A stretch of 64,000 nt of DNA from the NCBI RefSeq assembly GCF_018977255.1, contig NW_024704743.1, positions 14,200,001 to 14,264,000 on the forward strand, written 5' to 3'. Positions within the stretch are counted from its first letter, which is position 1, and every line of letters begins with the position of its first letter. Positions 29,630 to 53,061 of this stretch are shown here, in pieces. A program made the position numbers and the translations under genes. The notes below the pieces were generated by a model that saw only the letters and a program-made list of their open reading frames with translations, made no database searches and was not told where the DNA came from. Source of the stretch: Callorhinchus milii (lineage: Eukaryota).

Positions 29630-31051
29630 CAACAACAACAACAACAAGATTCCATTTATAGAGTGCCTTTCACGTCGGGAGGACGTCCCAAGGCGCTGTA
29701 CAGTTGGGTCAGGACCCCAAGCATAGGGGGGAAAATAGTCAGGGTGAGGGGAGGGAGGGAGTGAGGAGGGGGAAATAGTCAGGGTGAGGGGAGGGAAGGG
29801 AGAGAGCGAGGATGGGGTAGAGAGTCGAGAGGGGAGCTGAAGGCTCGGTCAAAGAGAAAGGTCTTGAGACCAGCCTTGAAGGTGGAAAGGGAGGAGGCGG
29901 CGAAGGCACTGGGGGATAAAGTTCCAGAGCCTAGGGGCTGAGAGGCTGAAGGCCCGGCCACCGATGGTAGGGCGGTTGGGGCGGGGGATGTGGAGCAGAT
30001 GGGAGCCAGAGGAACGGAGGGTACGGGCAGGTAAGTAGGGGGATAGTAGGTCAGAGAGATAGGAGGGAGCAAGGCCGTGAATGGCCTTGTAGGTGAGGAT
30101 GAGGATCTTGAATTTGATCCTCTGGGGGATGGGGAGCCAGTGGAGGCGAGCGAGGGTGGGAGTGATGTGGTCGCGAAGCCTGGTGCGGGGCAGTACACGA
30201 GCTGTAGAGTTCTAAATGACCTGCAGCTTGTGGAGGGAGGTGCCGGGAAGGCCGGCGAGGAGAGAGTTCCCATAGTCCAGCCTTGAGGTGATAAAGGCGT
30301 GGACCAGAATTTCAGCCGCGTGAGGGGTGAGGTAGTGCCGTAGTCTGGCGATGTTCCGGAGGTGATGGAAGGCGGTGCCAGTTGTGGTGCGGATATGAGG
30401 GAGAAAGGACAGCTCAGGGTTGAACAGAACCCCGAGGTTCCTGACCGGCTTTGAGAGGTGGAGAGTGCAGCCTTGGATGCTGATGGTGTCAGCGCCTGAG
30501 GTGCGGAGGCGCTGACGTGAACCAATCAGGAGGGCCTCAGTTTTGCACACGTTGAGTTGAAGAAAGTTGTCTCTCGTCCAGGACTCGATGTCGGACAGGC
30601 AGCTGTCAGGACATCGGTGGTCGTGAGTTGAGGGTAGAGGAGGAAAGGTAGAGTTGGGTGTCATCTGCATACATGTGGAAGTTGACCCCATGTCTGCGGA
30701 TGATGTCACCACAGGGGGAGCATATAGAGGGTGAAGAGGAGGGGACCAAAGACAGAGCCTTGAGGGACACCGCACGAGACAGTGCGGGGGGTGGAGGAAA
30801 AGCCGTTCGTGGAAACAAAGTAAAGATGGTGGGAGAGGTACGACCTAAACCACTCAAGGACAGGGCCTTGAAGGTTTAGGTGGGAGGACAAGCGGTGGAG
30901 GAGGATAGTGTGGTCGACCGTATCGAATGCTGCCGATAGGTCGAGGAGGCAGAGGAAGCCCTGGTCGCAGATGGTCAGGATGTCATTGGTGACCTTGATC
31001 AGAGCAGTTTCTGTGCTATGGGCAGCACGGAAACCCGACTGAAGGGGTTCG
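29630..31051 (-). mobile_element. Young 5'-truncated L2 (RT through 3' tail)
   Basis: [32 protein letters not shown]; (CAA)n tail at 29630; highly similar to 32741-34171 in inverted orientation. Confidence 0.95.
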
Positions 31052-31069
31052 AATAATGAATGGGTGAAT

Positions 31070-31771
31070 AATGAATCCTACTTAACCAAATGCCTTCATT
31101 TCATCTCAGCAAATAGTTTCTCCTCCTGGCCCTGCCCGGTCACCTGCAGGGTGTCCCAGAGCTCCCTCCTTGTACCTCTTCTTTTCCTTATCTATATGCT
31201 CCCTCTGGGCAATGTCATCCGCAGACATGGGATAAACTTCCACATGTATGCAGATGACGCACAAATCTACTTTGCCTCCTCCAGTACCAACTCCAGTTCC
31301 GCCAATATTCTATCAGCTTGTCTGGCAGATATTAGGGCCTGGATGAGTGTAAACTTCCTGTAGCTGAATGTGGCCAAGACTAAAGCCATACTCCTTGGCT
31401 CCCGTCAACGTCTTCACTTCTGAGGATCTGAACTCCTCAACCTCCATGGGCTCCCCTCATGCTCACCGAACCAGTGCACAATCTAAGTGCCTGGTTCGAC
31501 CCCCAGCTCCTCCTTATCCAGTCCCCGACCAGCACTGACTCCTTCCGCCTCCGCCACATTGCCTGTCTCCGACTGTACCTTACCTCAAATGCAGCCAAAA
31601 CCCTCGTGCATGCGTTTGTCACCTTCTGCTTCGATTAATCCAACACACTCCTCGCCAGTCTCCCCAGCTGCACTGTTCAAATGATCCAGCTCATTCAGAA
31701 CTCTGCCGCCCACATACTGACCCAAGCCAAACTCCACACTCACTTCTCACCAGTTCTGTCCAGGCTCCACT
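31070..31771 (+). mobile_element. Older L2, 5' portion; continues at 35148-35612
   Basis: [29 protein letters not shown]; the last 61 bp recur at 35148-35208. Confidence 0.88.
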
Positions 31772-32186: not shown

Positions 32187-32341
32187 CAGTTACTACACTT
32201 TATACTAAATCCTTTAAAGCACTTTGCGACATCCACTCAATGTGAAAGGCACTGTATTAAAAGCAACGATTGTTATTAAAAGTATATTTCCTTTCAGTAC
32301 ATGGTCCACATTGTTCATTCTTCTGATGAATCTTATAACTT

Positions 32342-34171
32342 CCACCCACCACCCACCCCTTCCCTCCCACACTCCGACTCCTACCCATCCTCCCCTACAC
32401 ACCTTCGTACCCGTTTCCCCACCCTCTGTCACTGAACTCATCCTATCCCTAAAACCAACCACCTGCTCCCTTGACCCCATCCCCACTCCACTCCTTATCT
32501 CCCAGCTCCATTTTCTTGCCCCACACATCACTGACATCATAAACCTGTCCCTCTCCTCTGGCTCTGTCCCCATTCCATTAAAAACTGCCATCATCACGCC
32601 CACCCTGAAAAAACCCTCCCTTGATGCGTCGCAGCTATCAAGCTACCGGCCCATCTCCAACCTCCCCTTTCTCTCCAAGGTCTTGGAAAGAGTTGTCGCC
32701 TCCCAACTGCGCTCTTTCCTCTCCACCCATTCTCTTTTCGAACCCCTTCAGTCAGGTTTCCGTGCTGCTCATAGCACAGAAACTGCCCTGGTCAAGGTCA
32801 CCAATGATATCCTGACCATCTGTGACCAGGGCTCCCTCTGTCTCCTCGTCCTCCTCGACCTATCGGCAGCATTCGATACGGTCGACCACGCTATCCTACT
32901 CCACCGCTTGTCCTCCCACCTCAACCTTCAAGGCACTGTCCTTGAATGGTTTAGCTCTTACCTTTCCCACCGTCTTCACTTCGTCTCAACGAATGGCTTC
33001 TCCTCCACCCCCCGTACTGTCTCATGTGGTGTCCCTCAGGGCTCTGTCCTCGGTCCCCTCCTCTTCACCCTCTATATGCTCCCCCTTGGTGACATCATCC
33101 GCAAACATGGGGTTAACTTCCACATGTATGCGGATGACACCCAACTCTACCTTTCCTCCTCTACTCTCAACTCCACGACCACCGATGTCCTGACAGCCTG
33201 CCTGTCCGACATCGAGTCCTGGACGAGAGACAACTTTCTTCAGCTCAACGTGCGAAAAACCGAGGCCCTCCTGATTGGCTCACGTCAGCGCCTCCGCACC
33301 TCAGGCGCTGACACCATCAGCATCCAAGGCTGCACTCTCCACCTCTCAAAGCCAGTCAGGAACCTCGGCGTTTTGTTCGACCCTGAGCTGTCCTTTCTCC
33401 CTCACATCCGCACCACAACTGGCACCGCCTTCCATCACCTCCGGAATATCGCCAGATTACGGCACTACCTCACCCCTCACGCTGCTGAAACCCTGGTTCA
33501 CGCCTTTGTCACCTCAAGGCTGGACTATGGGAACTCTCTCCTCGCCGGCCTTCCCGGCACCTCCCTCCACAAGCTGCAGGTCATTCAGAACTCTGCAGCT
33601 CGTGTACTGTCCCGCACCAGGCTTCGCGACCACATCACTCCCACCCTCGCTCGCCTCCACTGGCTCCCCATCCCCCAGAGGATTGATTTCAAGATCCTCA
33701 TCCTCACCTACAAGGCCATTCACGGCCTTGCTCCCTCCTACCTCTCCAACCTACTATCCCCCTACCTACCTGCCCGTACCCTCCGTTCCTCTGGCTCCGG
33801 TCTGCTCCACGTCCCCGCCCCAACCGCCCTACCATCGGTGGTCGGGCCTTCAGCCTCTCAGCCCCAGGCTCTGGAACTCCATCCCCCAGTGCCTTCGCCT
33901 TGCTTCCTCCCTTTCCTCCTTCAAGGCCGGTCTCAAAACCTTTCTCTTTGACCGTGCCTTCAGCTCCCCTCTCGACTCTCTTCCTCCTCCTCGCTCCCTC
34001 CCTTCCCTCCCCTCACCCTGACCATTTCCCCCCTCCTCTCTCCCTCCCTTCCCTCCCCTCACCCTGACCATTTCCCCCTGCTCGGGTCATGACCCAACTG
34101 TGCAGCGCCTTGGGACGTCCTCCTGACGTGAAAGGCGCTCTATAAATGGAATCTTGTTGTTGTTGTTGTTG
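32342..34171 (+). mobile_element. Young 5'-truncated L2 LINE with an uninterrupted RT domain
   Basis: Open frame TCSLDPIPT...[15 protein letters not shown]...[12 protein letters not shown]...[13 protein letters not shown]...YADDTQLY...[10 protein letters not shown]; (GTT)n tail; TSD taactt at 32336-32341 and 34172-34177; empty site at about 48284-48289. Confidence 0.97.
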
Positions 34172-43704: not shown

Positions 43705-45572
43705 AAAAACAAGCCTCATTCGATGGCCTGTTGAATGACTTAAACAGCGAGTCTCAGGAAAACAGTTTACGAGCCACGTATCCACCAGGAGGACGTGGCA
43801 CTTGTGGAAAATCTTTGTTAGCACCAACTAGTCACAGTACTTCAGTCCACAACAATCACACTATCCATTCAGAGATTAATCCTGCAAAACCCAAGGTAGT
43901 GACAGTGGTAAAGGCAGGCAGGCAACCATACAAGAAGATAACAATTCTCTTGAATAGACGCTGTATGCAGACCTTTGAACAGCTTATTGCTGATATATCA
44001 GAAGCTTTGGGTCATCCCTGCTGGAAAAGTCAATCAGTGAAAACGCTGTACACTTTGAAAGGGAAAGAAATAAGAAGTGTTTCTGACTTCTTCAGAGGAG
44101 ATGATATGTTCATTGCTGCAGGGAGAGAGAAGTTGACTATGGTAGATGTACAGGACGTTTTAGAAGAACTTTATCCTGACAGTCCATGTGCCCAGAGCCT
44201 GATTCAACAACAATGGTTTCAGTCTCAGAAACCTTATAACAAATGCAGTGATAAGAAGGGATCAAAGGCAGATGAGCCTGAGCTTTCCAAACCTATTGGC
44301 AGTGTTAAATCTGCAAGACAAATAGCTAAAAACATAGAGAAAGTCAGAGCCACAGTCAGAAAACAAGAAAGAGAAAAGGCTCGGAAATGGGAACAAGAGA
44401 GAAGCGAGAGAGAGAAAAGAGAACTGTCCGAGAAACAAAAAGAGAAAGAGAGGATACAGAAAAAAAACCCAAGCTTTAATGCTGACAGAGAGATTGAAAA
44501 GTGTAAGATCAATAAAAGAGAGGTGAAGCAAAAGCAAGAAGAGATGAAACGAGAGATCAAGAATGACACAGGAACATGCAGAAGTGAGTGCAGAAGAACA
44601 AAAGATGAAATCAAGAGATTTTGGGTCCCAGAACTTGAAGGGGAAAAAGAGAAAAGGGAAAAGGGAAGTGATCAAAACTTGCTTTATGAGGTTGAAGAGA
44701 AAGAAAGAGAATACACAAGGAAAAGCAGAGGGAAGAAGTTGGATGCTGAGCGAGCACAGCCGCTAAATAATATAAAAGAGGAAAAGAAGCAACTGAAAGA
44801 CAGGAGCAGGTTGGTGAAAGTGGAATCTGAAAGGTGGCAAAATGGGAAACTGCGATACCATGAACAGGTAGATAATGATGAAGAGGAAGAAATATATAAT
44901 CATCCAGAAGGCTTACTGAATGAAGAAGATGAAAACTATAAAAATGCAAAACAGGAGAATCAAAAGGATGAAAGAAAACAATATTGTGGACAACAAAAGC
45001 TAAGGAATAAAGAAGACCAAAGGTGGAAAGATATGGGATGCAAAGAAGCTCAAAGCCAACCTCCGAGTACTTTTGCTGTAGAAAAAATTATAATCAGAAA
45101 AGACAATGATACTCAGTCAAGGGAAACACATATGCTCACATCAAAACCACAACAAACCATACCTCAGAGAGAAATCGAGAGTTATTATGAGATTGGCAGT
45201 ACTATTGGGGATGGCAACTTTGCTTTAGTAAAGGAATGCAGGCTTAGGAATACAGAAGAGTGGTACGCAGTGAAAATCATAGATAAAGCAAAGATAAAAG
45301 GAAAAGAAGATATGATTAAAAATGAGATTGCAATTGTAAAGAGCATTTCACATCCTAATATTGTGAGGTTTATTGAAGAGTTTGAAAGTGATACTGAGAT
45401 ATACATCATTATGGAGTATGTTCATGGAGGGGACCTATTTGACGCAATTACAGAAAATGTTAAGTTTACAGAACAATGTGCCGCCTTCATGATAACCAAT
45501 CTTTGCAAGGCCTTGGCATATATCCACAGTAAGAACATCGTACACAGAGATATGAAACCAGAAAATCTTTTG
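43705..45572 (+). CDS. DCLK3: DCLK3 large coding exon (1868 nt): single doublecortin domain, charged linker, kinase subdomains I-VIb
   Basis: Acceptor tttactctttctacAG ends at 43704 (phase 1); donor TTG|GTAAGT at 45573 (phase 0). Translation has KPKVVTVVK...LLNRRCMQTFEQLIADISEALG...LYTLKGKEIRSVSDFF (DCX) and IGDGNFALVKEC...AVKIIDK...GGDLFDAI...HRDMKPENLL, recognisable as vertebrate DCLK3. Confidence 0.96.
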
Positions 45573-45609
45573 GTAAGTAGCATGTCAATTAAACTTTTAG
45601 TTTTTTGGA

Positions 45610-49504: not shown

Positions 49505-49601
49505 TTCTTAACTTATTCATGGTTTTTTTTATGAGAAGTAAATGTGTAACTGAAAGCTGTTGTGATTTTCATGTTTTTGTGGTATTATCTTTTTGACAGG
49601 T

Positions 49602-49654
49602 CTCTGAAATGGTACCTGGTGTGAAGGACACTATATAAATGAAAGTTGTTGTTC
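49602..49654 (+). mobile_element. 53-nt L2 3' tail inserted at the DCLK3 splice acceptor
   Basis: ctctgaaatggtacctggtgtgaaggacactatataaatgaaagttgttgttc, flanked by 9-bp TSD TTGACAGGT (49593-49601, 49655-49663). Confidence 0.85.
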
Positions 49655-49661
49655 TTGACAG

Positions 49662-49794
49662 GTTCAGTGCGATGCAGATGGAAACACAGCACTGAAACTG
49701 GCGGACTTTGGTCTTGCCGTGAAGGTGACAGAACCGATATTTACTGTATGTGGAACCCCGACATATGTGGCTCCTGAAATCCTATCTGAGACAG
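49662..49794 (+). CDS. DCLK3: DCLK3 kinase exon with DFG and APE motifs ([45 protein letters not shown])
   Basis: Too short for the ORF track; translated by hand. Acceptor cttgacAG ends at 49661, donor ACAG|GTACCT at 49795. 133 nt, phase 0 to 1, joins in frame to both neighbours. Confidence 0.95.
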
Positions 49795-49849
49795 GTACCT
49801 AGAGCAATGTCAAATGGATCCATGGTTGCATCCACATATATAATTGTAG

Positions 49850-50180
49850 GTGAACATGGCAGCTAACTTGCATACAGAAATTCCCCACGAACAGCCATGA
49901 AGTCAATGACCAACTTTGGGTGATTCTTGAGCAGGACACTGGGAGAAATTTCCTTCTCTTTTAAAATTGCTCCATGCGATCTTTAACATCCATCTGAATA
50001 GGCGGGCAGGTCCTCTCTTTAAAGTTATAATCTGGAGAATGGCACCTCCAAAATTGCAGTGCTTCCCCAGCATTGCATTGGAGTGCCAGTCTGGACTATG
50101 ATCAAAAGGTCTTGACCTGAGACTTTGAACCCATATCCTTCTGACTCAGAACCGCAAGTGCTGCCAATTGAGTCAGGCTG
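49850..50180 (-). mobile_element. Older Deu-type SINE, intronic
   Basis: gatctttaacatccatctgaataggc, ccttctgactcaga. Confidence 0.75.
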
Positions 50181-50388
50181 CAGAATTGAGCTATTGGGCC
50201 AAGAATATAGTTTAACAATATCCTTGAGCTACAAATTTATGCTGAATAGTGTTGCTGTCATTTTCAGGTCAATGCGTTGCTGCTGTAATTCTCAACTGTG
50301 GTTAATATTTGCTTGTTGTGCAGTAGCTCAACTTTTATCTATTGGAAGACAAACATCATTCATTTCACTGATTTTATTCTTTTGCTAG

Positions 50389-50556
50389 GTTACGGGTTAG
50401 AGGTGGACATGTGGGCCACAGGAGTGATCTTGTATATCCTATTGTGTGGCTTTCCTCCGTTTCGCAGTCTGGAGCGAGATCAGGAGGAGTTATTTGAAAT
50501 CATCCAGCTTGGAGAATATGAATTCCTTTCTCCATATTGGGACAACATCTCTGATG
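50389..50556 (+). CDS. DCLK3: DCLK3 kinase exon ([57 protein letters not shown])
   Basis: Acceptor ttcttttgctAG ends at 50388. 168 nt, phase 1-1. Ends at non-canonical donor GATG|GCAAGT, the only nearby donor that keeps frame with the last exon. Confidence 0.92.
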
Positions 50557-51074
50557 GCAAGTATTATTTCTCTATTATTTAGGTTGTGTAACCAGCAGAA
50601 CGAATGGAAACAGGACAATTAAACTGGCTGATATTGGCCTTGCCACAAGGTGACAGAACCTAGTTACTCTATATGGAACCTCAATATGTTTGGCCCCTGA
50701 AATCTTAAATACCATATTTAAGATTCGTATCTCTCCTGCTGTTTGCAGCTGGATTTTATTTGAATTGGCTTCCACTGCCTAATTTGTTCAGTTTTCTTTT
50801 GAAGGCGTTGCTCAAACAGGATTGAATTGCTGTTACACTAATTCAACTGGTTACAACCTTAAGAACTCCAAAACCATATGGCAGGCTCATTGATAAGACT
50901 ATTTTGCAGTCCAAAAATTGAGTGACAGTTTTAACTTTCCTTCCTCCTCTCCAATTGGCAGAAAGAATGAATTTTCATGTGTGTGAGGTAGACACTTAGC
51001 TAAGTGGCTGCCAATTGTCAGTGTCTGCCAGGGTTTATAATGCACTTTGTTATTGTGCTGGATTGTTTCTAGTA

Positions 51075-51515
51075 ATAAGAATAAGAATACTTTTATTTGA
51101 CATAACATCTTTCACTGAAACAAGACATATCAACATGCTTCACAGGATATACTGGAAAGTGTGCTGATGTGTATTTATAGATGAACACGGCAGCCAATTT
51201 ACCCACAGCAATGTCCTATAAACAACCATGAAAAGGATGAACAATTTTATCTGGGGGATTGGTGGCTTGGACACCAGGAGAAACTCCCTTTTCTTTTTGA
51301 GCAGTGCCATGGGATCTTTAATGCCCATCTGAATAGGCAGACAGCACCTTGGTTTAACATTTCATCCAAATGTTGGCATCTCCAGACAATGCAGCACACA
51401 CTCCCATCATCACTGCCATGGAGTAACAGCCTAGACTATATGAGTTCAAAATCATAACGTGGGGCTTGAACCAATAATCTTCTAACTCAGAGGTGCAAGT
51501 GCTACTAACTGAGCC
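51075..51515 (-). mobile_element. Older Deu-type SINE in the last DCLK3 intron
   Basis: gtgccatgggatctttaatg, ggtttaacatttcatcc, gtggggcttgaacc, ctaactgagcca. Confidence 0.8.
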
Positions 51516-51693
51516 AGTGAAACTGGCTATCACGCCCATGTTATAGGCAGGTTGAGATATTAAGAAGCCATGACCCCCACTGTCATAGGAAATGATTTTG
51601 AAGTAATCCTCAGCTGCTAAAGGTCTTGTGCTTGTGGTTAGCCAGTAGGCGGTATGAGTTGAATGACTTTGTTTCTGGATTTGGTTTCCTCAG

Positions 51694-51890
51694 GCGTCAA
51701 GGGACTCATCAGCAAACTTCTGGTGGTGGATCCGAAAAAACGTTACACAGCCCAGCACGTACTCCAGCACCATTGGATCCAATTGGGGGGCAAGATGAAC
51801 ACCCCTACCCTAAAGGGAGAAATGACAACAAACTTAGAGGCACATTTCAAGAGTCATCATTGCCAGGAAATGAGGGATTCAGCAGTATGA
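51694..51890 (+). CDS. DCLK3: DCLK3 terminal coding exon (GVKGLISKLLVVDPKKRYTAQHVLQHHWI...DSAV-stop)
   Basis: Acceptor tttcctcAG ends at 51693; kinase subdomain XI LLVVDPKKRYTA; TGA at 51888-51890. Confidence 0.95.
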
Positions 51891-53061
51891 TTTTAACAAG
51901 AACTTGATTGCTATAATGCCGTTCATGTAGGGTAACATCTTAGAGAGTTTTATAAGTACAGAGTGAGATGTAAGCAAGGGAGAGGGGAGAAGGGAGAAAA
52001 GGGGAGATGACTATAGGTGTGTTCAATGAGGCAGGATCTGAGACAGAAAGAGAGAGGGCGAGACAGAGTGGTAGAGGAAGGCAATTCCAGAGGTTTCAGC
52101 ATTGACTGGCCCTTAATCATGAAACTGTGAACTGACCTGCTTCTTATAGATAGGTTTAAAAACAGCAAATCCTGGAAGTACACAACAGGCCTATTTAAGC
52201 ATTTTAACAGATAGTTGTGTTAAAGGTTCATTTGCAACATCTTTATAAAGTGGAAGAGGGTGAGTGGAAACAGATGAAGGAAACAAAGACATTAGGAAGA
52301 AAGTGACAATTTAGAACCACTAACTGCACACATATGTGGCAACCAACCATTCAAGATTTGCCAGTATAGAATATCTCCAATGCGAAAGAAACATTAGAAG
52401 CAGTTAAGTGTGTGTCTAAGTAATATTTGATATGATTGTTTGTAGTAATTGTATGATTTATATTTTTTTTAAATTGTAACTCTCTAACCTTGCTAACATC
52501 CATAAGAACAACGACACAACAAAATTACATTTGTATAACGCCTTTCACGTCGGGAGGATTTCCCAAGGCGCTGGACAGTCAGAAGCTTCTGATATCAGAT
52601 CTTTAAATCAAATATCTCTTTCCTCTCCTCTTTAGCCACTTTGACACCATGTGCTTACAATGGAAAATCACATTTGGACCCTCTAACATGTCCTTAATGT
52701 CTGCAGTGCTCTGCATTTTTATACATAAATATACTTTTCTACTTTTATATAACTATACTGACAAAAGGCAACTTGGTCGAAGTTTGTAAATATGTATGTT
52801 GTTGTTCTTGTGTGCTGGAGTTTGTTTGATGTTGCGGTTTGCCTGACTACACAAGGTACTCTGAAATACACATGGGCTGTTTATTTGTAATGCAAACTAA
52901 CATGGAAGCTCCTACAGTTTGTTATAACTGAGGCAGAGTGTGATTGCTGCATACAGTCGGGCACGTATTCAGCAGTATCTTCAGTGTTTAATTTTAAAGC
53001 TCTGACGGTGATCAGACTTGTTGAATTGTTGAACCTAATTCACCTGTCTTTTCAGAAGCAG

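What the first reader, a model, noticed from the sequence alone, without database searches (positions are those of the whole stretch)
49593..49663. L2 tail inserted exactly into a DCLK3 splice acceptor, duplicating it
Seen: TTGACAGGT occurs twice (49593-49601, 49655-49663) around a 53-nt L2 3' tail. The original acceptor, with its native pyrimidine tract (attatctttttgacAG, 49599), is now 62 nt upstream. The in-frame acceptor (49661) uses the retroposon (GTT)n tail as its pyrimidine tract. Using the upstream AG reads VSEMVPGVKDTI-stop (TAA 49636-49638), truncating the kinase before DFG. Inference: the TSD rescued the gene, and the locus now has a potential poison 3' splice-site choice (NMD or kinase-dead DCX isoform). 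The insert also contains ATG|GTACCT, the same donor hexamer this exon uses.
Basis: partly seen in the sequence, partly recalled or inferred. Interest (0 to 1): 0.72.

Follow-up and report, generated by a model that had tools for sequence, protein, structure and literature searches.

The report
Old retroposon tail rebuilt splice acceptor
A tiny piece of a jumping gene landed long ago on a splice site of a kinase gene in chimaera fish and copied that site; the new copy is the one found in use, and the old copy was not seen in use, so this looks like a tolerated old insertion rather than a proven on/off switch.

Summary
A 53-nt 5'-truncated LINE 3' tail sits between two TTGACAGGT copies spanning the exon-3 acceptor of elephant shark DCLK3. 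Sister copies are often this short and carry similar short duplications, so the event itself is ordinary.

Two new results change the reading. (1) It is old: DNA contigs of two related species run 41 and 30 nt upstream of the exon without a gap, with at most 5 and 3 differences there; an empty site predicts about 22 and 14. (2) The one informative RNA contig enters at 49662; no contig or annotated protein uses 49600. Contigs cannot exclude a rare or NMD-cleared form.

Best reading: the duplication preserved the exon and the tail became part of the working acceptor; the old acceptor is near-silent. A possible reason is a predicted hairpin (49564-49647) in which the insert pairs with the old branch point, pyrimidine tract and AG. 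Controls for it are only suggestive. A regulated poison switch is unsupported (about 8%). No empty site was seen in any genome.

The parts
49593..49601 (+). Upstream copy of the target-site duplication, holding the orphaned AG (49598-99)
   Evidence: not used in any RNA contig shown
49560..49592 (+). Original pyrimidine tract and branch-point-like TTCAT (49568-72) of the orphaned acceptor
   Evidence: 11 of 16 pyrimidines at -20..-5, previous AG at -44, yUnAy at -29
49602..49654 (+). 53-nt 5'-truncated LINE (L2-type) 3' tail, sense to the gene; GTT register extends to 49657
   Evidence: best genome copies 90% over 52 nt; 77% over 44 nt to the tail of the RT-coding LINE at 32218-34168
49655..49663 (+). 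Downstream copy of the duplication, holding the working AG (49660-61)
   Evidence: spliced RNA contig begins at 49661 (shared G); annotated protein uses it
49564..49647 (+). Predicted pre-mRNA hairpin pairing the insert with the orphaned acceptor; the AGs ending at 49599, 49626 and 49645 all lie in its stems (prediction only)
49636..49638 (+). Premature stop reached if the upstream AG is used (657-aa product; 324 nt before the last junction)
49612..49617 (+). Latent donor-like GTACCT; the G is found in 2 of 41 other copies; no use seen
43705..45572 (+). DCLK3 large exon (DCX domain, linker, kinase up to KPENLL); donor GTAAGT at 45573
   Evidence: 5' end inferred from P0001
49662..49794 (+). 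DCLK3 exon 3 (133 nt, DFG to APE)
50389..50556 (+). DCLK3 exon 4, followed by a GC donor
51694..51890 (+). DCLK3 last coding exon, to the stop codon

Best explanation
Shown: a 53-nt LINE 3' tail lies between two copies of a 9-nt target that spans the intron-exon boundary. It is present in two related species. The spliced RNA contig that spans this place enters at the downstream AG. Inferred history: L2-type reverse transcription primed on the target's TTG through the (GTT)n tail, stopped after about 55 nt, and duplicated TTGACAG|GT. The exon kept a complete AG|GT, and the U-rich tail replaced the displaced pyrimidine tract. The allele was viable, became fixed before these species split, and now works as the normal acceptor. 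Inferred mechanism for the silent old acceptor, which by sequence looks at least as good: the purine-rich insert folds back on it and hides its branch point, AG and the two internal AGs (about 35% that this contributes). Any leak meets a stop after 12 codons and is removed by NMD. The alternative is ordinary splice-site competition plus NMD with no role for structure.
For: Repeat identity and boundaries. Family behaviour: 28 of 41 other copies classed as short; flanking repeats of 7 nt or more in 4 of 28 against 4 of 756 mismatched-flank controls; L133 has the same TTG overlap. L2 makes short duplications in 20 of 25 insertions (PMC2666801). Age: contigs of organisms B and C cover 49621-49821 (12 differences, 0 gaps) and 49632-49821 (10, 0), with 7 listed differences each inside the exon; an empty site predicts about 22 and 14 mismatches upstream of the exon. 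Use: X2 contig 16 (depth 151.7) starts at 49661 and continues 1103 nt off the stretch. It is the only depth at 49667 and 49670, while an intron-to-exon-4 contig at depth 4.66 survives in the same run. Both C. milii database proteins are 810 aa; 0 of 120 homologs contain VSEM. Exon under constraint: 1 and 2 of the 7 listed changes alter an amino acid. Hairpin: -21.7 kcal/mol; 1 of 41 other tails placed in the same context is as stable and 0 of 41 pair the upstream AG as well; 50 of 3000 random mutants reach it.
Against: No empty site was seen anywhere, so the pre-insertion state is inferred. Only 1 of 2 RNA runs is informative (the X6 contig starts at 49676), tissues are unknown, and contigs drop rare forms. 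Exon 2 was not in the laid stretch, so the donor partner is inferred. Hairpin: the window was chosen after seeing the fold (z -2.49; -1.7 and -1.6 in two other windows). 6 of 34 decoy CAG|GT acceptors fold as stably with this insert, and 2 of 34 gain as much over the family majority. The downstream AG is also predicted 66-79% paired. A local-window calculation gave the opposite order of accessibility (0.113 upstream, 0.013 downstream). Reverting 49608 to the family base lowers the energy further. L004 shares three of the pairing bases plus A49628, so they may be inherited. Conservation of the tail region is not above neutral (P 0.19 and 0.08).
Confidence: 0.75

Rival explanations
1. Regulated poison acceptor: cells switch to 49600 in some tissues or conditions to lower DCLK3 by NMD or to make a kinase-dead DCX protein.
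For: The upstream site keeps a longer pyrimidine tract, a 44-nt AG-free zone and a yUnAy motif, like the gene's other acceptors. The stop is NMD-competent. The X13 depth in bin 49506-49586 equals about 4 nt of one contig, a weak hint that relative C also matches upstream of the insert.
Against: No contig or protein uses it. An intact 9-mer is expected by neutral survival with probability 0.35-0.57, and an intact AG with 0.79-0.88, so its persistence shows no selection.
Confidence: 0.08
2. Unregulated leak hidden by NMD: the old acceptor is used for a sizeable, constant share of transcripts that are destroyed, and the loss is tolerated.
For: By sequence the upstream site is at least as good. 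Steady-state contigs under-report NMD targets.
Against: X2 keeps an intron-to-exon contig at about 3% of the mRNA depth at exon 4 but none at this boundary. Long persistence gave time to remove a costly leak (inference).
Confidence: 0.1
3. In-frame rescue through the upstream AG: either a 12-nt microexon (VSEM) followed by a 50-nt intron from GTACCT, or recursive removal of the 62 nt from the re-formed G|GTCTCT donor.
For: The microexon keeps the frame. The AGGT duplication is the geometry proposed for intron gain by transposons (PMC3443670). One bird homolog has a 9-residue insertion at this junction (P0070).
Against: No joint at 49611>49662 among those shown (445 joints not shown). 0 of 120 proteins have VSEM. 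50 and 62 nt are at or below the usual vertebrate minimum intron size, and GTCTCT is a poor donor (own knowledge).
Confidence: 0.03
4. The direct repeat is not a target-site duplication: the tail inserted without duplication and the upstream match is chance, or the locus is an assembly artefact.
For: 3 of the 9 nt overlap the tail repeat, leaving 6 independent nt (chance about 1e-2). 2 of 756 control flank pairs reach 9 nt or more. No empty site was seen.
Against: The upstream copy ends exactly at the element's 5' boundary and is preceded by a full acceptor context. Two other species' contigs link the tail to their own exon variants, which excludes an artefact.
Confidence: 0.04

Closest known systems
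[quoted passage not shown]
   Same: 3' tail ending in a short repeat, 5' truncation, duplication under 20 nt, microhomology at the 3' junction.
   Different: Only 53 nt remain, so LINE and partner SINE cannot be told apart from the insert alone. The target was a splice acceptor.
Transposon insertion into AGGT with duplication of the protosplice site (intron-gain model, PMC3443670)
   Same: AG|GT is duplicated on both sides, leaving the coding sequence intact.
   Different: The site was already an intron end.
De novo Alu/L1 insertions at 3' splice sites in NF1 (PMC3219598)
   Same: Retroposon integration in the AG or pyrimidine tract of an acceptor.
   Different: Those 4 Alu insertions caused exon skipping. 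Here the insert is short, its tail is U-rich in the sense direction, and the exon is kept.
TE-derived alternative or constitutive 3' splice sites (PMC2394776) and structure-sequestered CAG acceptors (PMC11802449)
   Same: TE sequence supplies acceptor elements; a paired CAG can be a weaker acceptor.
   Different: Both AGs here are host-derived and no TE sequence was seen in mRNA. The structural effect is predicted only.

Membership tests
Non-LTR retroposon insertion by target-primed reverse transcription | Matches the 3' end of a dispersed LINE family, 5'-truncated | tested here: met
   longer copies with the same tail align to the RT-coding LINE (Pfam RVT_1)
Non-LTR retroposon insertion by target-primed reverse transcription | Direct repeat flanking both ends | tested here: met
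   9 nt exact at both boundaries; family baseline
Non-LTR retroposon insertion by target-primed reverse transcription | Empty orthologous site | tested here: inconclusive
   Both relatives tested carry the tail; no elasmobranch DNA was reachable (best hit 62% protein identity)
L2 clade (as opposed to CR1 or Rex1) | RT groups with reference L2 elements in a tree | not tested
   No labelled references available. Indirect: nearest non-Callorhinchus hits are mostly teleost RT proteins, about 55-59% identical; L2 is prevalent and CR1 largely absent in teleosts (PMC13343379)
L2 clade (as opposed to CR1 or Rex1) | Tail matches the Repbase L2-2_CM consensus | not testable with these tools
   The supplement of PMC5499810 could not be read
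Poison splice-site choice (AS-NMD) | Alternative site gives a stop more than 50 nt before the last junction | tested here: met
   324 nt
Poison splice-site choice (AS-NMD) | The unproductive junction is used in RNA | tested here: inconclusive
   Not seen in the 1 informative run of 2; contigs only; no such protein
Poison splice-site choice (AS-NMD) | Use is regulated and rises on NMD block | not testable with these tools
   Needs raw reads or an experiment
Poison splice-site choice (AS-NMD) | Conservation above neutral around the poison site | tested here: inconclusive
   Tail side P 0.19 and 0.08; upstream AG in relatives not displayed
Intron gain by AGGT duplication | Insert excised as its own intron between the duplicated sites | tested here: inconclusive
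   No such joint shown; a recursive step would leave the same mRNA and cannot be seen in contigs
Structure-guided 3' splice-site choice | Skipped AG lies in a stem more stable than controls | tested here: inconclusive
   favourable; (local windows) and 41 weaken it
Structure-guided 3' splice-site choice | Compensatory changes across species, or rescue by compensatory mutation | not testable with these tools
   Relatives' letters in 49560-49660 were not displayed

The most novel reading that the evidence does not exclude
The LINE tail did two jobs. It supplied the new pyrimidine tract, and it folds back to hide the old acceptor and the two AGs it brought in. Looping out 49564-49647 would put a branch point near 49549-49553 about 25-30 effective nt from the working AG. 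The hairpin would be kept across chimaeras and could act as a tunable switch to the NMD-sensitive acceptor. More broadly, very short (GTT)n tails could be a recurrent source of rebuilt acceptors in these genomes; one IMPA-family exon has such a tail beside its acceptor.
Probability: 0.12. Interest if true: 0.6.

Novelty: new member of a known kind. Interest (0 to 1): 0.3.

Why it matters
As it stands it is a clear, old example of a retroposon landing on an acceptor of a conserved kinase gene and being absorbed into it. It may also serve as a presence/absence marker for chimaera phylogeny. It offers a natural pair of identical AG|GT sites 62 nt apart in which the better-looking one is apparently ignored, a compact test of how 3' splice sites are chosen. 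It would matter more if the hairpin proved functional and conserved, or if the poison junction proved regulated. Neither is shown.

Tried and rejected
Elasmobranch empty site from metagenome contigs: 80 loci returned, best 62% protein identity, none orthologous.

The run search listed no holder on record as RNA; X2 and X6 proved spliced when laid. X6 says nothing on the acceptor, as its contig starts at 49676.

The degenerate exon-3 copy at about 50586-50707 as an internal pre-insertion control: its upstream sequence scores the same against the old tract and the tail (20 against 19), so it was rejected as uninformative.

An intact upstream 9-mer as a sign of selection: rejected, neutral survival is 35-57%.

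A young or polymorphic insertion: rejected by the two relatives.

Other duplicated acceptors genome-wide: 71 tail-plus-CAGGT matches; 29 of the 70 others were viewed. Ten of these were translated; one was a clear host coding exon, without a duplicated AG, and two long frames were LINE remnants. A direct search for tails with AGG on both sides could not be run, so the frequency of duplicated acceptors stays open.

Precedent searches: 2 papers; 0; 0; 16, intron gain; 3; 0; DCLK3 isoforms. No report of this locus was found; the library lacks most subscription journals. Earlier scan findings: none.

Full report
Observation. Every coordinate in the finding checks out. TTGACAGGT lies at 49593-49601 and 49655-49663 around 53 nt. 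The upstream AG gives VSEMVPGVKDTI-stop and the downstream AG gives the intact kinase. The searched kinase-side part of the large exon is 100% identical to the protein labelled Callorhinchus milii DCLK3 (P0001), and exons 43705-45572, 49662-49794, 50389-50556 and 51694 onward reproduce its printed C-terminal sequence. Of 120 listed homologs, 107 could be read across this junction; 106 have the same 11-residue spacing and one bird protein has 20. None contains VSEM. The C. milii cluster has two members, both 810 aa.

What the insert is. It matches many dispersed copies, the best at 90% over 52 nt. Longer copies with this tail align to the 3' end of an RT-coding LINE at 32218-34168, whose nearest non-Callorhinchus relatives are mostly teleost LINE proteins. 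The label L2 is likely but was not tested with a tree. PMC5499810 (passages and section 8 read; supplement unavailable) reports that C. milii SINEs share the L2-2_CM tail, so a 53-nt piece cannot be assigned to LINE or SINE with certainty. The 5' boundary is sharp at 49602 and the GTT register runs to 49657, so the duplication starts with a 3-nt microhomology.

How ordinary the event is. Of 41 other copies (15 from a 264-kb region, 26 from similarity-ranked genome hits), 28 were classed as short by an ungapped boundary rule; a few of these belong to other subfamilies and are misclassed. Flanking repeats of 7 nt or more occur in 4 of 28, against 4 of 756 mismatched-flank controls, and L133 shows the same TTG overlap. 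PMC2666801 (passages) found duplications in 20 of 25 zebrafish L2 insertions in wild-type cells. The region holds 66 tails in 264 kb, so occasional hits on acceptors are expected.

Age. I laid four runs on 49506-51910 at 85% likeness. Organism B has a gapless contig over 49621-49821 with 12 differences, and organism C one over 49632-49821 with 10. Seven listed differences in each lie inside the exon, leaving at most 5 and 3 for everything else. An empty site would give about 22 and 14 mismatches upstream of the exon. Their own variants at 49667 and 49670 lie within 31 nt of the tail, so this is neither contamination nor an assembly artefact. B and C are about 95% identical here and are probably other chimaeras (inference). 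[quoted passage not shown] The insert differs from the majority of its 23 nearest copies at 6 of 53 sites, too few for a tight date. Whether B and C keep the upstream AG was not displayed; one depth figure hints that C matches from about 49583, which is weak. No empty site was seen.

Splicing. X2 and X6 carry spliced joints for exons 3-4 and 4-5, so they are RNA. X2 contig 16 (2257 nt, depth 151.7) starts at 49661, the G shared by both sides of the junction, and continues 1103 nt off the stretch. That fits 45572>49662, although exon 2 was not in the stretch. It is the only depth at 49667 and 49670, so no second contig crosses from the insert into the exon. The same run keeps an intron-to-exon-4 contig at depth 4.66, about 3% of the mRNA contig. 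X6 is uninformative. Contigs show presence, not absence, tissues are unknown, and the poison form would be an NMD target (stop 324 nt before the last junction). A rare form is therefore not excluded.

Why the old acceptor would be ignored. By sequence it looks at least as good as the new one: 11 against 9 pyrimidines in -20..-5, previous AG at -44 against -17, and a yUnAy motif at -29 against none at a usable distance. Folding gives a four-helix hairpin over 49564-49647 in which the insert pairs with the old branch point, tract and CAG|GU. The AGs ending at 49599, 49626 and 49645 all fall in stems. In favour: 1 of 41 other tails is as stable in this context, 0 of 41 pair the upstream AG as well, and 50 of 3000 random mutants and 45 and 55 of 2000 column-sampled tails reach the energy. 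Upstream pairing is 0.83-0.99 in all 30 windows. Against: z is -2.49 in the chosen window but -1.7 and -1.6 in others; 6 of 34 decoy CAG|GT acceptors do as well; the downstream AG is also 66-79% paired; a local-window calculation reversed the order; and several pairing bases occur in other copies. PMC11802449 (passages) links paired CAG acceptors to weaker use but says the effect of a structure cannot be predicted without testing. I give the hairpin about 35% of contributing.

Rivals. A regulated poison switch has the right geometry but no evidence of use or selection (8%). An NMD-hidden constant leak is possible (10%). An in-frame VSEM microexon or recursive splicing needs a 50- or 62-nt intron and was not seen (3%). 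A chance repeat is unlikely (4%).

Comparison and novelty. It works like the AGGT-duplication model (PMC3443670, passages) but makes no new intron. It resembles the NF1 acceptor insertions (PMC3219598, passages) with the opposite outcome. TE-supplied 3' splice sites are well known (PMC2394776, passages). PMC13343379 and PMC12509982 were seen as passages only. Searches found no report of this locus, within an open-access library. A pattern search gave 71 tail-plus-CAGGT sites; among 29 others viewed, an IMPA-family exon has a sense tail ending 9 nt before its exon, without a duplicated AG. A tail-supplied acceptor context is thus probably not unique. Verdict: real, old, a new member of a known kind; interest 0.3.

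Noticed in passing
window 50557-51693: DCLK3 intron 4 is a GC-AG intron (donor GCAAGT); the joint is present in both RNA runs.
   Followed up: yes
window about 50586-50707: Degenerate copy of exon 3 (78% over 107 nt, with stops and frameshifts) about 30 nt after the exon-4 donor; skipped by both RNA contigs.
   Followed up: partly
L156:1259-1665 (G000:C2, locus 110535881-110538912): An inositol-monophosphatase-family exon (Pfam 7e-08) has a sense LINE tail, split by a SINE piece, ending 9 nt before the exon start; no duplicated AG and no RNA check.
   Followed up: partly
L004, L008, L010, L112-L134 and the 264-kb region around the window: Many copies of this tail are only 52-66 nt long, with 5' ends piled within about 9 nt of one position (28 of 41); this suggests a preferred stop point of reverse transcription.
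   Followed up: partly
window 49795-49800: The exon-3 donor is the weak-looking GTACCT, yet it is used in both RNA runs.
   Followed up: yes
window 32218-34168: LINE copy with a 577-codon open RT frame (Pfam RVT_1) and an intact tail; related copies at 29633-31077 and elsewhere are 85-91% identical at the 3' end.
   Followed up: partly
P0070 (bird DCLK3): An annotated 9-residue insertion at the same exon junction, perhaps an upstream acceptor or a gene-model error.
   Followed up: no
window 34956 and 49052: Two tail copies share the same upstream flank, so they are parts of a composite repeat rather than independent insertions.
   Followed up: no
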